64,000 nucleotides of DNA from the NCBI RefSeq assembly GCF_009914755.1, contig NC_060932.1, one strand, 5' to 3'. How positions within the stretch are numbered: position 1 is the first letter of the stretch; each line of letters opens with the position of its first letter. The notes below the pieces were generated by a model. The model saw only the letters and a program-made list of their open reading frames with translations, ran no database searches and was not told the DNA's origin. This stretch comes from the human T2T-CHM13v2.0 reference genome, Homo sapiens. A program made the translations under genes and the position numbers. Shown here in pieces: positions 9,765 through 19,610 of the stretch.

Positions 9765-9847
9765 TTGGTGCCGGCTGGCTCCAGCCAGGAGCTGGCGGGC
9801 TGCCTCCGCATGCGAGGACGCAGCCTCAAGGCTGGCTTCAATACTAT
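9765..9847 (-). CDS. TSNARE1: TSNARE1 coding exon, C-terminal half of the SNARE motif ((D)[27 protein letters not shown])
   Basis: Not in the ORF track; translated by hand. Acceptor ttgtcttgatttgcag|AT AGT ATT GAA, donor CAA|gtaagt. 83 nt, phase 1 to 0; G+AT completes the Asp of 'EQGEAVDSIE'. Confidence 0.95.
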
Positions 9848-12800
9848 CTGCAAATCAAGACAACAGAAGGCAATTACAGATGGAGGCCCAGCCGCCCCCG
9901 CCCTGAGGACACCCCCCAAAGGCAAGCCCAGGGAGCCTGAGCCCAGGGCCTGCAGAGGAGCAGAGGCTGCAGGGATGGGCGCTGGGCTGCCAGACGTGCC
10001 GAGGGCTCCGCGTGGTGTGGGCAGTGGGCAGCAATGACATTAGAACGGAGGCCTGGAGGTGGCCCAGGGAAGGGGACTCCTCAGTGCCCACACCAGGTGG
10101 GGCAGGAAGAGTCCACTCAGGAAAGGGTGGGAGTGGCAGGCGGAGGTGAGGGCTGGGGTCAAGTCCTGCTCTGTCATGACCTTGCCTGGGCCAGCCCCTC
10201 CACTCTGTGGCCACGGCCCCCTCTGAAGGGGCAAAGCCCCTGCCTTAACGTCTGTGGAGTTGCGACGCGGCTGATGGAGACCGGGTCTGCAAGCACAGGG
10301 CTCTGGTTTGCCACACGCACTGGCCCTCGACTCAAGCACAGGGAGCTGATCAGAAAGTTGTGCTGCCGTGCGGGGATCACGGGAGATGGTACCTGGGAAA
10401 AGCCGGGCTCGGTGGCTGCAGCAGTGCCACCCAGGGAAGCCACATCAGCAGGGCCCACGGGAGACACCAGACCAGGGCCGGGGCAGCCCCAGGGATCCGG
10501 AAGATTCCATGCTCAGCATTGTCTTCCACCCAAAGGAAGGACACATGCCACCTGGGCACCAGGAGCGCAGGCACAGCCGGGGTCCTCAACAGAGCCACAT
10601 GCAAACACGAGCAAACACGAGCACGGGCAAGCCTTCTTCCCGGAGGGAGGTTCCTTGCAAGGCCTGCCTCCAATCAGGCAACTGGAGAAGAGCTTGGGAG
10701 GCAGGAGTATCTAAACAAACTGTGCACCTGCAGTGCCTACCAGGGCACAGACCTGAGCTGACTTGAGCCTCAGGGGTCTTAAGGCCTGGGATAGAGAGGC
10801 CATTACAACCACAGGGACTGCTGCCAGGCACAGCCTGGCACGACTGGCTCTGAGGGAGGAGGGTCCTCAGAAAGACAAGGCCACTCCCCACCGTCCCAGC
10901 AAGGACTCCCTACTCTCATCAGGGAACTGTGGCCCCATCTCTGCAAGCCCCCTGGGCAGGAGGTGGAACCCATGAGCCCTGCCTTCAGAAGCCCCCACCC
11001 AGGCCTCACAGGGATCCTTGAACCCTTGGTCACCAGCTCCACCCCACCCTTGCCCCCAGCGCAGGGCCCTAGTGGAGCCGCAGGCACTCGCAGACACACC
11101 CTGATCGCCGCATCTGGGGGCTCCTGCCCTAGCCAGGGAGGGGAGAGCCAGGCTCCTGCACAAGGAGCCAAAGCCCAGAGAGCGGGTATGGGTGACGGCC
11201 TCGGCCGCTCCTGGAGCAAAGCACCCCTTTGCTCACTTGCAGACAGCCCCCAACTGAACTCTGCTCTCTATGTCCTGCCACATTAGGGTCACGACCCTCT
11301 GAGCCAATGGAGGAGGAGAGGGAAGGAAGATGGGGCCAGAGGTGTGACGGATCCCCCCACAATTGCCACTCAGGAGGGACCAGCCTGCGAGGGAGGAGGC
11401 GCTAGCCTGGGCCCGGGCAATGCCCCGCTCACGTGCAAAGGAGCCACCTTACACCTGCAGTGGTAACAGCCTGGCCTCGCTTCTGTTGCTGAGAGGTGAA
11501 TGTGGACAGTGGAGAGCATTTGCCAGCAGAGACAGGAAGGCCATGGTGGTCTGGGCTAACACAGGTGGTGCTGGACAGGCCATGTGCCCTGGCTGGACAC
11601 TTTCTCTGCCCCGTGACCACACGCAGCCTCAGCCAAGCCCTGGACCCCACCCTTGGACTCAGCCTGTGCCCAATCCTGCTCTACACCTAGCCCTGGCCCT
11701 GGGGACTCTGATCGTAGTGTGTGACCTGGAGGCCCACCCTCAGAATGGGGACTGATGTCCTGCTGCTCCAGGGCTGCATGCACCGGCCACAGACCCAGGG
11801 CGGTCCCAGGGGCATTCTTAGCCAGCATGGCACTGCCCACATTCAAGACACCTCACACAACCACTGCCCGGCTCCGCAGCCAGCAACATCTCCCTCAGCG
11901 CCCAGGCTGCCAGGTGGGCACGCCATGTCCTGCCCCGGCGCAGTGCACAGAGATGCACAAGGGGAGGGGGGCTGCTCCCGGTGCTGTGAGGCCGCGTGTT
12001 GCTCGTGGGGTGAGGACAGGTTTGGTGCGTGGGACCTGTGGTACTGAGCGACACTCCAATACCTCATCAGCCATCAGCCCTGGGCCCAGTGGCTTTGTCA
12101 GGTCTTGGAGGCCCCCAGTCTGTGAGGTGAGCCCTGCAGAGCCACAGGCCCTGGGCACCTGCTCCTCCCAACACAGGGGGTGCTCCACGGGGGCCCCTTG
12201 CACATCCCCTGACTCCAGGAGTCCAAGGGATACCCAAGCACTAGGCCAGAGGCCTCCAGGGGCCAGAGAGAGCAGCCTTTGGGACCGCCCTCCCCAGACA
12301 CTCGCAGAGCAGCACACACACCTCAAAGGAAACTGCCTGCCCAGTGCCCTCAGGGCACAGGGACCCCTGTGGGAGACCCCCCTGCACTGGGTCAACTCGC
12401 TGCCCCCAGCCCCACAGCCGTGACCAGCCCTGCAGGCCTGGCCCTGCCCAAACCCCAGGCAGTGCCGCTGCAGAGCGGAAAGCATGGCCGGCTCGGGGCA
12501 ACTGGGCCTGCAGCTGGGATGCCCCCACCCTGTCCTCAGGCTTGGCAGCCACTTTCCTACTTCCTGCCTCTGCGCCCACAAGAGGAAGTCTGGCCCTGTC
12601 CTAAGCACTCTCGCTTGGGAATTCAACACGTCAGTTGCTGTCAGCAGCAGGGCAGGCCACTCAAAGCAGCTCACAGGCACCAAAGACTCCCGTGCTGCAG
12701 GGGAGCCCAGCGGCCTGGGGACCTGGAGTGGCTGATCCACCAGGGGTCACAGAAGTCGAGGCTGGGTCTCAGTCTAGGGCAGGGAACCACAGGGTGAGCA

Positions 12801-14843
12801 AACCTGAGTTCCTGCAGCCTCCAGGGCTGAGGACTTGCAGAAAAGGACTAAGCACCTGGGCCACACCAGTGCCACCCCTGCCAGGCCCCTCCTTCTCAGC
12901 CCCACACCACATGTCTATCCTTGCCATGAAGCACCCCCAAACCAGGTCTGCCTCTGCCCATAGGACCCTTGGCTGCAAGAATCTGCCCTTCAGGAGACAA
13001 TGTGGCCTCAATGGGGGTGGATCCAGCCATCCCTGGCCTGCACAGGCCTGAGCGGACCCAGATCCTCCTCCAGCCCCACCCCATCAGGAGGCCCACTGAC
13101 CAGGCCCATCCCCCAAGCCCCACCACAAGGCCTAGTGCCCAGGCCCATCGCCCAAGGCCCACAGCCCAGGCCCCTTGTCCAAGCCCAGCCACAGGGTTGG
13201 CTGGGTCTACATGCGTCTCCCAACCAGTCCGGCCCACTCTGCCCATGGGTCCCAGCCTCATGCACCGCTGTGAGCAGGAGCAGCTGAGGATGCCCCAGCG
13301 CTCCAAGTTCTGCCATGGCTGCCACTGGGGGCGTTTGAGGCCAGCCCCTGCCTGTCCTGTGAGGCTGGGTCCTTCTGTCCACTCTGTGGCCCTCAAGGAG
13401 CTGGTCCTGCTTCCGGGGCTTCGTTCCCAAAGTCCTTCCAGCAGCTCCCAGGAAGGGGAGGGTCCAGCGGGGCTCTGCTTCGAAGGGTGTGCCACCATAT
13501 GCGGAGGACGGCGAAGGAGCTCCTGGCACGGTGTCTTGAGGAGGAGAGGAGGTGCGGTGGGAGGAGGCACGGAGGCGGCAGGAGGAAGCACGGAGCCAGC
13601 ATCACCCTCAGAGCCAGCGTCACCCTTGGAGCCAGTGGCAGCTGCGGGCTGCAGACGAGGCCTGACCAGACAGAAACGCCTGGCTTCCGGTGGTCCCTGG
13701 AGTGGGCCCGTGGGCTCGGAAGGGGGCACAGCGTGCCTGACAGGCTGAGAGTCACCGGACAGCACCACGTGTGGGGCTTCCAAGTGGGCCCAGAGGGAGG
13801 GGCCTGCAGAAGGAGGGGGAGGCCACTGCAGGCCAGAGTGAGGCACAGCGTGGGGCGGGGAAGAGTCAAGCTGGGGCCCAGGCTCCTCCCTGGCTCTGCC
13901 CAAACTCCTCAACGTGACCAATGAATGGACAGGTCACCTGCTGCTCCCTGGGAGCTATGTCAAGGGCCAGCTGGCTGGAGGTGCATATGGGCTGAGGCTC
14001 CTCCCACCTGCTGGCTGGCCTTGCCTTCTCATGGTAGCTGTACGCTGGGGCTCTGGGGCTGGGGGAGAGCGGAGGGAAGCCCTCCTTCTTCCCAGACACC
14101 CCTGTCTTCAGACCCTGGGGCCAGCTGGGCCCTGCTGCCCTGCATGGGAAAGTAGGGACTTCTCCCTGCTGGGACCCACTGGTTTGGAAGACCTGGCTGC
14201 CTAAGGACAGCCGTGCTCACCGCTGGACTGCATCTGGAAGGGGAGGGCTGCCCGTGGAGAGGAAGGCCAGGCCGGGACCCGGGGCCAAACAGGCCTCCGG
14301 CCACACGACACCAGGCGGGAACGGCAGAGGCCAAGATGGGGGCCTTGGAGGGCACCAGGGCACCCTGGGCTGCACCCGCTGCTGCTGCACGTCGGGGAGC
14401 TCAGGCCTTGTCTCTGCCCCTCACCAGGCACTGGTCCCAGAGGCCACCTTGTGACCGCCTCCCCACGGTAGCGCTCACCTCTCTACAGTGACTAGGACCC
14501 AGCATCCCATCTGGACACCCGGTGGGCACGGCTTGAGGTGGCGTATATGGTCGAGCCCCTTGATGGCACAATGCTTGGCAATGCAGGGAGGACCCTGAGC
14601 TGGAACCGCAGCCCTTCCACTACCGAGACAGGCAGAACCCTCCCTGGCCCCGACCCTTGGTTTCCCCACCTAAAAGAAGAGATGGGCCAGGAGGGTGGCG
14701 GGCCATCTCCATGGGCCTCTGGGTCTCCCTCGGAGGGTCTCCCTCTTGGGAGCTGGTGCAGAAGGCTCAAGCCCACTCGCCGGCCCTGCTTGCCCCAGGG
14801 CAGTGTGGTCCGGGGGGGCGGGCTGTGGGGAAGGCCCACTTAC

Positions 14844-19350: not shown

Positions 19351-19537
19351 AGCGGAGCAGGGCTGGAGGAAGACAGGGCAGGAGGGGAGGGAGCAGATGC
19401 TCAGACCTGGACCCCAGCCTGGGCCTGGCTCCTCTTAGAGGCCCCTTCACCCACCCTTAGGTGAAGGGGTGAGGGCTGGGGGCTGGCAGGCAGGCCCTCG
19501 GGGCAGCAGGTGGCCCGAGGCTGGGGCGGGTACCCAC

Positions 19538-19610
19538 CAACAGCTTCTCCTTGCTCTGACACCATGGAGGCCAAGTCCTTGATGATCTGATTCACATCCA
19601 GCAAGTTGCT
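19538..19610 (-). CDS. TSNARE1: TSNARE1 coding exon, Qa-SNARE core including zero-layer Gln ([24 protein letters not shown])
   Basis: Within ORF 19401..19625(-). Acceptor tgtttccacag|AGC, donor GTTG|gtgggt. 73 nt, phase 0 to phase 1; classic syntaxin 'DVNQIxKDLAxMVxEQG' motif. Confidence 0.96.

What the first reader, a model, noticed from the sequence alone, without database searches (positions are those of the whole stretch)
9765..19610. Splice-phase logic predicts a SNARE-versus-DNA-binding switch just after the zero layer
Seen: exon 19610-19538 ends in phase 1, four codons after the zero-layer Gln (SEQ-GEAV). Three downstream acceptors are all phase 1: the Myb exon (15308; G+GG=Gly), the SNARE exon (9847; G+AT=Asp) and the terminal exon (6675; G+CT=Ala). 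The Myb exon is symmetric (1-1). Inference: possible products are (a) a full SNARE, (b) half-SNARE-Myb-coiled coil, (c) Myb inserted in the middle of the SNARE helix, and (d) half-SNARE fused directly to the coiled coil. Products b-d could not complete C-terminal zippering and could be inhibitory SNAREs or nuclear proteins.
Basis: partly seen in the sequence, partly recalled or inferred. Interest (0 to 1): 0.78.

Follow-up and report, generated by a model that had tools for sequence, protein, structure and literature searches.

The report
TSNARE1 splice switch: SNARE versus Myb tail
Inside the schizophrenia-risk gene TSNARE1, one splice donor in the middle of the membrane-fusion (SNARE) helix can join either the rest of that helix or an old transposon-derived DNA-binding module with a conserved tail; this isoform family is already modelled in databases but has not been studied.

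Summary
Exon 19610-19538 ends in phase 1, four codons after the zero-layer Gln. Acceptors 15308, 9847 and 6675 all read open from that phase, and the 465-nt Myb exon is 1-1 symmetric.

Phase and open frames alone prove little here: the window holds 94 stop-free stretches of 150 codons or more. Homology carries the case.
- The Myb exon is a second Myb_DNA-bind_5 domain (E 1.6e-20).
- The 200-aa phase-1 frame of the terminal exon is conserved from frogs to human.

Product b (half SNARE, Myb2, tail) already exists as human RefSeq models X1, X2, X5, X6 and X11. It is the architecture of 109 of 120 proteins found with the tail. Product c is modelled in other mammals and a turtle. Product d appears in only 2 of 120.

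- The terminal exon is the published "exon 13", read in phase 0 as a 14-aa tail in the main brain isoforms.
- Frogs and turtles carry full SNARE, a third Myb and the tail.

Function and abundance remain untested, and published brain PCR did not report these forms.

The parts
35586..35744 (-). TSNARE1 exon 10 in the published numbering (my label A). 159 nt, phase 0 to 0. Its last codons begin the SNARE core.
   Evidence: Plooster preprint section 8 places the SNARE core in exons 10-12. tblastn of human isoform X1 matches here.
19538..19610 (-). Exon 11 (B). 73 nt, phase 0 in and phase 1 out. It holds the zero-layer Gln and ends four codons after it. Its donor is the branch point of the switch.
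   Evidence: An ortholog's SNARE region aligns to syntaxin 13 (2nps_B, E 8.9e-13) and syntaxin 7 (1gl2_B, E 4e-11) with the Gln in register.
16874..16931 (-). Annotated 58-nt cassette exon (X). From exon 11 it shifts the frame and leads to premature stops in every continuation tried.
14844..15308 (-). Myb2 exon (M). 465 nt, phase 1 to 1. It encodes a second Harbinger-type Myb/SANT (trihelix) domain with basic clusters.
   Evidence: Pfam PF13873: E 1.6e-20, 73.2 bits against a cut-off of 21.7. 58% identical (80/139, E 8e-46) to the N-terminal Myb of isoform X1. AF2 model helical over residues 49-117 (plus a short helix 129-139), with Myb/trihelix DNA-binding folds as the nearest PDB matches, all at E above 0.001. 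No in-frame ATG before the domain.
9854..13661 (-). Alternative long exon (L) with its acceptor at 13661. It gives an 88-aa tail after exon 11 or after M.
   Evidence: Human isoform X12 (P0204) is B-M-L.
9765..9847 (-). Exon 12 (S). 83 nt, phase 1 in and phase 0 out. It encodes the C-terminal half of the SNARE motif. The alternative donor at 9761 (+4 nt) makes it end in phase 1.
   Evidence: Pfam SNARE PF05739: E 2e-4, 21.6 bits for this 27-aa piece, below the 26.8 cut-off.
4441..6675 (-). Terminal exon (T), which is 'exon 13' of the published gene model. It is dual-coding. From phase 1 it gives 200 aa (codons 6673-6074, stop 6073-6071). From phase 0 it gives 14 aa (6675-6634, stop 6633-6631). 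Poly(A) signals start at 4491 and 4481.
   Evidence: Published primer TSN1-CT3 maps to 6658-6631. The phase-1 frame is conserved from frogs to human. AF2 predicts one helix, 82-148, at pLDDT 96-98.

Best explanation
TSNARE1 carries an old, phase-locked splice choice inside its SNARE motif. The phase-1 donor of exon 11 sits just after the residue four positions past the zero-layer Gln. That residue is the +1 layer by the usual 3/4 spacing, which I recall and did not compute.

Route 1: the donor joins exon 12 and completes a Qa-SNARE motif.

Route 2: the donor joins a symmetric 465-nt cassette that encodes a second Harbinger-type Myb/SANT domain. That cassette then joins the terminal exon in phase 1. 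Phase 1 is the only frame in which that exon encodes its conserved 200-aa tail. The tail has a 67-residue helix and an invariant C-terminal SGMILKVEE motif.

The Myb-plus-tail unit is the remnant of a Myb-like module that was fused behind a full SNARE motif in early tetrapods. Frogs, salamanders, caecilians and turtles still show SNARE-Myb3-tail. Amniotes gained the intronic Myb2 cassette. The human locus shows no trace of Myb3, and no mammalian model seen here has it.

As a result, exon 12 (phase 0) now runs into the tail exon out of frame. This yields the 14-aa 'non-TM' end of the main human brain isoforms.

Shown here: the anatomy, the homology, the conservation and the existence of database models.
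Inferred: that the half-SNARE/Myb2/tail protein is made and selected for, and that it shifts the protein from SNARE pairing towards a DNA-binding or nuclear role.
For: Anatomy and phases.

Myb2 identity:
- Pfam PF13873 at E 1.6e-20.
- The predicted fold lies nearest the Sap1, Zeste, RTBP1, NgTRF and GT-1 DNA-binding domains (all E >= 0.046).

Only one route to translating Myb2:
- Of the six exons of the selected transcript in the window, only exon 11 ends in phase 1.
- The Myb2 exon has no ATG before the domain, and none in the 24 open codons upstream of it.
- So in human, Myb2 can be translated only through the 19538->15308 junction.

Conservation:
- Myb2 is 74% identical between human and tortoise (126 aa, E 9e-55).
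- Between human and frog, the tail is identical at 39-42 of 67 positions in the helix and 12-13 of 16 in the C-terminal motif, but only 4-9 of 34 in the linker. This mosaic is the pattern of protein-level selection in that frame.
- 32 columns are invariant across 15 sequences.

Database models:
- 109 of 120 proteins holding the tail are B-M-T, including 7 human rows.
- Turtles have all three classes: B-S-Myb3-T, B-M-T and B-M-S-Myb3-T.

History:
- The Myb domain tree splits Myb3 from Myb1+Myb2 with 100/100 support.
- No Myb3 relic lies between 9765 and 6675.
- The published exon-13 primer maps into the tail exon and ends on the phase-0 stop.
Against: No RNA or protein data could be examined here. 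The XP/Gnomon and Ensembl models are computational and can propagate by homology, so their number is not independent evidence of expression.

Plooster et al. used a forward primer at the common N-terminal (exon 2) coding region and a reverse primer inside the tail exon. That pair should also amplify B-M-T cDNA. They nevertheless reported only four brain isoforms, all with the whole SNARE domain. B-M-T is therefore probably minor in adult brain.

Conservation of Myb2 could instead be maintained through product c (B-M-S; 42 of 53 new models). Conservation of the tail could be maintained through other phase-1 entries, such as donor 9761 or species-specific linker exons.

The structural matches for Myb2 are all weaker than E 0.001.

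The tail has no relatives outside TSNARE1: 23 clusters among 1.84 billion representatives, all fragments or isoforms of the same tail. Its Harbinger origin is therefore an inference.
Confidence: 0.65

Rival explanations
1. The half-SNARE forms are splicing noise or gene-model artefacts. The Myb2 cassette matters only as an insert within an otherwise complete protein (B-M-S). The tail frame is kept by full-SNARE routes into the terminal exon, such as donor 9761 or small linker exons. There is then no real SNARE-versus-DNA-binding switch.
For: - B-M-S is modelled in many mammals (42 of 53 new proteins), including forms with a transmembrane end (P0245, P0254).
- Donor 9761 puts exon 12 in phase 1, and S2->T reads the whole tail.
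- Four mammalian models join exon 12 to the tail through extra peptides.
- Brain PCR that could have caught B-M-T did not report it.
Against: - No human protein with S2-T or B-M-S was among the listed hits.
- The linker peptides are unrelated to each other and to Myb3, as expected of model fill-ins.
- B-M-T is the dominant model class (109 of 120), and turtles have it too (P0192).
- A 155-residue insert between the SNARE layers would itself break the continuous helix.
Confidence: 0.22
2. Myb2 plus the tail is an independent nested gene with its own promoter in intron 11. It is not an alternative ending of TSNARE1.
For: Some database entries hold only Myb2 plus the tail: P0125 (tortoise, 325 aa), P0201 and P0202 (marsupials), and P0122.
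Against: - In human, no ATG lies in frame before the Myb domain in the exon or in the 24 open codons upstream.
- None of the 19 aligned mammalian sequences shows a Met between the exon-11 junction and the domain.
- No CpG-island-like bin lies between 4000 and 21000.
- The marsupial entries P0201 and P0202 in fact begin with exon-11-like sequence (alignment).
Confidence: 0.06
3. The three phase matches are coincidence in a GC-rich region where long open frames are common.
For: The window holds 94 stop-free stretches of 150 codons or more. Each phase match has a 1-in-3 chance.
Against: - Pfam E 1.6e-20 for the Myb exon.
- Frog-to-human conservation of the tail in exactly this frame.
- Identical junction positions in turtle proteins.
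Confidence: 0.02

Closest known systems
tSNARE1b/c, the non-transmembrane brain isoforms proposed to act as inhibitory SNAREs (Plooster et al., bioRxiv 10.1101/2021.02.09.430442; I read the abstract, passages, and sections 7, 8 and 17)
   Same: Same gene, same upstream exons and same terminal exon. No membrane anchor. The paper discusses a negative role in endosomal fusion.
   Different: Those isoforms keep the complete SNARE motif and read the terminal exon in phase 0 (14 aa). The forms here stop the motif after the residue four positions past the zero-layer Gln, add a second Myb domain, and read the terminal exon in phase 1 (200 aa). The paper treats only the N-terminal Myb domain, which lies about 60 kb upstream of exon 11 on its hg38 coordinates and so outside this window.
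CSB-PGBD3 fusion (PMC2268245 and PMC3459987; I saw only the abstracts in the search listing)
   Same: Upstream exons of a host gene are alternatively spliced to a transposon-derived open reading frame lying in an intron. This produces a conserved fusion protein alongside the full-length host protein.
   Different: There a single piggyBac transposase exon is used, and the event is primate-specific. Here the module is a Myb-like accessory protein in two exons that flank a host exon. It dates at least to early tetrapods, and the terminal exon is also used out of frame by the main isoforms.
[quoted passage not shown]
   Same: A Myb/SANT trihelix domain of the kind carried by Harbinger Myb-like proteins. 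That paper lists TSNARE1 as a putative further case.
   Different: Those are stand-alone genes. Here the domain occurs up to three times within a syntaxin gene (Myb1, Myb2, Myb3) as alternatively spliced cassettes. No sequence comparison with NAIF1 or MSANTD proteins was run here.
Amphibian and turtle TSNARE1 isoforms with full SNARE, Myb3 and tail (P0127, P0176 and relatives)
   Same: The same tail exon product (44-46% identity, invariant C-terminal motif) and the same syntaxin body.
   Different: The Myb domain there lies after the complete SNARE motif and belongs to a different clade. No N-terminal Myb is present.

Membership tests
Qa-SNARE / syntaxin 7-12 group | N-terminal Habc (syntaxin) domain | tested here: met
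   Pfam Syntaxin_2 PF14523, E 8.9e-29, in human isoform X1 residues 287-417. Part of this region is encoded in the window.
Qa-SNARE / syntaxin 7-12 group | SNARE motif with a zero-layer Gln in register with solved syntaxins | tested here: met
   The SNARE region of ortholog P0092 aligns to syntaxin 13 (2nps_B, E 8.9e-13) and syntaxin 7 (1gl2_B, E 4e-11), with the Gln aligned. The human exons encode the same stretch.
Qa-SNARE / syntaxin 7-12 group | An uninterrupted motif covering the layers on both sides of the zero layer | tested here: not met
   This applies to products b and d. The motif ends four residues after the Gln and is followed by non-SNARE sequence. In product c it is interrupted by 155 residues. 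Product a meets the feature. Layer numbers are recalled, not computed.
Qa-SNARE / syntaxin 7-12 group | C-terminal transmembrane anchor | tested here: not met
   No product ending in the terminal exon 6675-4441 has a hydrophobic end. The anchor exon of the reference transcript lies outside the window. Hydrophobic, transmembrane-like tails were seen only in two non-human B-M-S models (P0245, P0254).
Myb_DNA-bind_5 (PF13873), the Myb/SANT trihelix domain found in Harbinger Myb-like proteins | Profile match above the curated cut-off over the whole domain | tested here: met
   73.2 bits against a cut-off of 21.7, E 1.6e-20, profile positions 1-77 of 78.
Myb_DNA-bind_5 (PF13873), the Myb/SANT trihelix domain found in Harbinger Myb-like proteins | Three-helix DNA-binding fold | tested here: inconclusive
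   The AF2 model has helices 49-61/63-66, 74-91 and 98-117 at pLDDT 82-93. The best PDB neighbours are the Sap1, Zeste, RTBP1, NgTRF and GT-1 DNA-binding domains, but none reaches E <= 0.001.
Myb_DNA-bind_5 (PF13873), the Myb/SANT trihelix domain found in Harbinger Myb-like proteins | DNA binding or nuclear localisation | not testable with these tools
   Basic clusters are present. There is no functional assay.
Inhibitory SNARE (i-SNARE) | Forms non-fusogenic complexes with cognate SNAREs and slows fusion | not testable with these tools
   Shown in print only for the full-motif isoforms tSNARE1b/c. Nothing is known for the half-motif forms.
Host-transposon fusion by alternative splicing (CSB-PGBD3 type) | A transposon-derived coding unit inside the host gene with its own acceptor and polyadenylation signal, used as an alternative 3' end | tested here: met
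   Acceptors at 15308 and 6675. AATAAA at 4491 and 4481, ahead of the exon end at 4441. The transposon origin of the Myb part rests on the Pfam family and on PMC9392472. The origin of the tail is unknown.

The most novel reading that the evidence does not exclude
TSNARE1 encodes two kinds of protein from one promoter.

The first is a syntaxin-like SNARE regulator. The second is a nuclear or chromatin factor with two Myb domains that keeps only the N-terminal half of the SNARE motif. It carries a helix and a C-terminal motif that have been conserved for as long as tetrapods have existed.

The choice between them is made at a single phase-1 donor inside the SNARE helix, and that choice has been kept since the amniote ancestor.

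On this reading, the 14-aa 'non-TM' end of the main human brain isoform is a frameshift relic left when mammals lost the third Myb exon. Part of the schizophrenia signal at this locus could then act through the ratio of the two protein kinds rather than through total expression.
Probability: 0.25. Interest if true: 0.75.

Novelty: new member of a known kind. Interest (0 to 1): 0.5.

Why it matters
TSNARE1 is a leading schizophrenia GWAS gene. Its only functional study held in the library deals with four isoforms that all have a whole SNARE domain and one Myb domain.

An isoform family conserved in sequence lacks the C-terminal half of the SNARE motif, carries a second DNA-binding domain, and carries a tail conserved from frogs to human. 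If that family is made, expression and overexpression studies that treat 'TSNARE1' as one SNARE protein miss half of what the locus encodes.

The evolutionary reading also explains an oddity. Most human transcripts end in a short peptide without an anchor because they enter an ancient coding exon out of frame.

The junctions are few and precisely defined, so existing long-read and proteomic data could settle the question directly.

Tried and rejected
Calls that gave no usable result:
- Earlier findings of this scan were not open to the session.
- Smith et al. 2012 (PMC3278475) and the final J Neurosci version of Plooster et al. (PMC8580139) are not held. I do not know what they say about a second Myb domain or further isoforms. 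The preprint's supplements are closed.
- A five-term search with min_terms 3 returned unrelated papers.

Literature searches on TSNARE1 with Myb, isoform, splicing, long-read or Harbinger found no paper that describes the intronic Myb exon or half-SNARE isoforms. I checked passages of three of them and of the CommonMind preprint.

The tail has no known family or relatives:
- Pfam gives only sub-threshold hits.
- PDB sequence and profile searches give nothing.
- The ESM Atlas gives scores of at most 0.81, in unnamed clusters.
- phmmer against 1.84 billion representatives finds only TSNARE1 pieces.

Other points:
- A fold search of the tail model was not run, because a single helix matches anything.
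- The precomputed Pfam lists lack PF05739 for the mammalian isoforms. My own scan also misses it in a protein with an intact motif (P0092). I therefore did not use its absence as evidence of disruption.
- A test of whether the tail helix pairs with itself (complex prediction, residues 78-200, two copies) never entered the queue in any of the tries. It gives no verdict. 'Coiled coil' rests only on a confident 67-residue helix and a moderate heptad pattern, with 12 of 19 a/d positions hydrophobic.
- One row of the tree was mislabelled by my pattern: 'Xenopus_M' is of the Myb3 type.

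
Full report
**1. The observation**

All features lie on the minus strand.

Exon 19610-19538 (73 nt) follows exon 35744-35586 in phase 0. It ends with one spare G after the codons for S-E-Q-G-E-A-V, and its donor reads TTG|gtgggt.

- 15308: G+GG gives Gly. The exon is 465 nt, so it is symmetric 1-1, and its donor is CAA|gtaagt.
- 9847: G+AT gives Asp. The exon is 83 nt and leaves in phase 0.
- 6675: G+CT gives Ala, followed by 200 codons and a stop at 6073-6071.

All junctions have AG/GT.

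It is not significant on its own. Each phase match is a 1-in-3 event, and this GC-rich window holds 94 stop-free stretches of 150 codons or more.

- The acceptor at 16931 opens a 58-nt exon that shifts the frame and leads to early stops.
- The acceptor at 13661 gives an 88-aa tail, whose conservation was not examined here.
- The alternative donor at 9761 puts the SNARE exon into phase 1.
- Entering the terminal exon from phase 0 gives only 14 residues.

**2. What the pieces are**

*The SNARE halves.* An ortholog with the two SNARE exons joined aligns to syntaxin 13 (2nps_B, E 8.9e-13) and syntaxin 7 (1gl2_B, E 4e-11), with the Gln in register. The exon boundary falls four residues after that Gln. 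By the usual layer spacing this is just after layer +1. That numbering is recalled, not computed.

*The 465-nt exon.* It is a Myb_DNA-bind_5 domain (PF13873, E 1.6e-20, 73.2 bits against a cut-off of 21.7). It is a second copy:
- The Myb domain treated in the literature lies about 60 kb upstream of exon 11 on the paper's hg38 coordinates, beyond this window.
- In human isoform X1 the two domains are 58% identical (80 of 139, E 8e-46).
- tblastn finds no separate locus for the first copy in the window.
- An AF2 model of the exon has three main helices at pLDDT 82-93. Its nearest solved folds are Myb/trihelix DNA-binding domains (Sap1, Zeste, RTBP1, NgTRF, GT-1), but all at E 0.046 or weaker.

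*The 200-aa phase-1 product of the terminal exon.* It matches no Pfam family above cut-off and no solved structure by sequence. In 1.84 billion cluster representatives it matches only 23 clusters, all pieces or isoforms of the same tail. AF2 with a 15-sequence alignment gives one long helix, residues 82-148, at pLDDT 96-98. The rest is disordered.

**3. The terminal exon is the published 'exon 13'**

Plooster et al. describe a non-transmembrane C-terminal exon 13 that ends 93-97% of cortical transcripts. Their reverse primer for it maps once, to window 6658-6631, and ends on the TGA of the phase-0 reading.

So the dominant brain isoforms enter this exon from exon 12 in phase 0 and stop after 14 residues. 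The exon is dual-coding.

The phase-0 tail is not conserved in length. It is 14 residues in human, chimpanzee and bonobo. The fragments shown for gibbons, macaques, carnivores and horses run to more than 60-90 residues.

**4. Database models**

A search with the tail found 147 proteins, of which 120 were listed. I classified them by BLAST against the exon translations:

| Architecture | Count of 120 |
|---|---|
| B-M-T (exon 11, Myb2, tail; contiguous) | 109 |
| B-M-T with an extra insert | 3 |
| B-M-S-insert-T | 3 |
| B-T directly | 2 (panda, wild camel) |
| B-S-insert-T | 1 |
| Lacking exon 11 | 2 |

Seven of the B-M-T rows are human (isoforms X1, X2, X5, X6, X11). The species span primates to elephant, sloth and a possum.

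A search with the Myb2 exon found 358 proteins, of which 120 were listed and 53 were new:
It includes chimpanzee and bonobo forms with the 14-aa end, and donkey and cat forms with a transmembrane end.
- 11 of the 53 are B-M with other tails. One of these is human X12, which uses the 13661 exon.

Among the listed hits there was no human B-M-S, B-T or 9761->tail protein.

These are computational models. Their number does not show expression.

**5. Conservation and history**

An alignment of 19 mammals, from exon 11 to the end, shows near-invariant Myb2 and tail segments separated by variable linkers, with in-frame indels.

Beyond mammals (one search found 203 hits, 120 listed):
- Frogs, caecilians, salamanders and turtles have TSNARE1 proteins with a complete SNARE motif. 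This is followed by a different Myb domain, which I call Myb3, and then the same tail. None has an N-terminal Myb.
- Turtles have three model classes: B-S-Myb3-T (P0176), B-M-T (P0192) and B-M-S-Myb3-T (P0172). Their junctions fall at the same positions as in human.
- Human against tortoise: Myb2 is 74% identical over 126 residues (E 9e-55) and the tail 46% over 212.
- Human against frogs: the tail is identical at 39-42 of 67 helix positions and 12-13 of 16 positions of the C-terminal motif, but only 4-9 of 34 linker positions. 32 columns are invariant in the 15-sequence alignment.
- A tree of 18 Myb domains separates Myb3 from Myb1+Myb2 with 100/100 support. Turtle and mammal Myb2 group together at 87/100. 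One row was mislabelled by my script.
- Myb3 leaves no trace in the human window.
- The peptides that link exon 12 to the tail in four mammalian models resemble neither Myb3 nor each other.

**6. Reading**

The most economical history is as follows. An early tetrapod gene had a syntaxin body, a full SNARE motif, a Myb-like module in two parts (Myb3 and the tail), and an alternative anchor exon. Amniotes added the Myb2 cassette in the intron that splits the SNARE motif. Mammals added Myb1 at the N-terminus and lost Myb3. After that loss, exon 12 meets the tail exon out of frame.

In human, the conserved tail frame can be entered only from a phase-1 donor. Of the six exons of the selected transcript in the window, only exon 11 ends in phase 1.

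Myb2 has no in-frame ATG before the domain, and there is none in the 24 open codons upstream of the exon. No CpG-island-like bin lies nearby. So Myb2 can be translated only through 19538->15308, and its protein-level conservation argues that this junction is used.

Whether Myb2 then goes mainly to the tail (product b) or back to exon 12 (product c) cannot be decided here.

**7. Against**

The published brain PCR should have amplified B-M-T cDNA, yet it yielded only full-SNARE isoforms. Abundance in adult brain is probably low.

No expression, localisation or binding data were available. Functional statements about inhibition of SNARE zippering or a nuclear role remain inference from domain content.

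The test of self-association of the tail helix never ran.

**8. Comparison and novelty**

The mechanism works like the CSB-PGBD3 case, where host exons are alternatively spliced to a transposon-derived frame (abstracts). It involves a Myb domain of the kind found in NAIF1 and the MSANTD genes.

The isoforms exist as database models. None of the papers found by five literature searches describes the second Myb exon, the half-SNARE forms or the dual reading of exon 13. Two key papers and the preprint's supplements could not be read.

I rate it a new, uncharacterised member of a known kind, of moderate interest.

Noticed in passing
window 6631-6675 (-): The 14-aa 'non-TM' end of the main human isoforms stops at a TGA shared with the chimpanzee and bonobo models. 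Gibbon, macaque, carnivore and horse models read on in that frame, for more than 60-90 residues in the fragments shown. The short human tail may be a recent truncation of an unconserved out-of-frame reading.
   Followed up: partly
window 9761-9764 (-): The annotated alternative donor, 4 nt downstream of the exon-12 donor, shifts the exon to phase 1. It would join a complete SNARE motif to the conserved 200-aa tail. No human protein of that form was among the listed hits.
   Followed up: partly
window 16874-16931 (-): An annotated 58-nt exon between exon 11 and the Myb2 exon shifts the frame and gives early stops in every continuation tried. It may be a poison exon.
   Followed up: no
window 5814-6875 (+): A 354-codon stop-free stretch runs antisense to the tail exon. 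It is one of many long open stretches in this GC-rich window and is probably a by-product of composition.
   Followed up: no
P0172, P0176, P0192 (turtles); P0127 and relatives (amphibians): Turtle and amphibian TSNARE1 models lack the N-terminal Myb domain of mammals and carry a third Myb domain after the SNARE motif. No birds, squamates or fishes were among the 120 listed hits. The 83 unlisted hits were not seen.
   Followed up: partly
window 6074-6103 (-), last 10 codons of the tail: The C-terminal motif SGMILKVEE is invariant in all 15 aligned sequences from frogs to human. It is predicted with low confidence. It looks like a short linear motif with an unknown partner.
   Followed up: no
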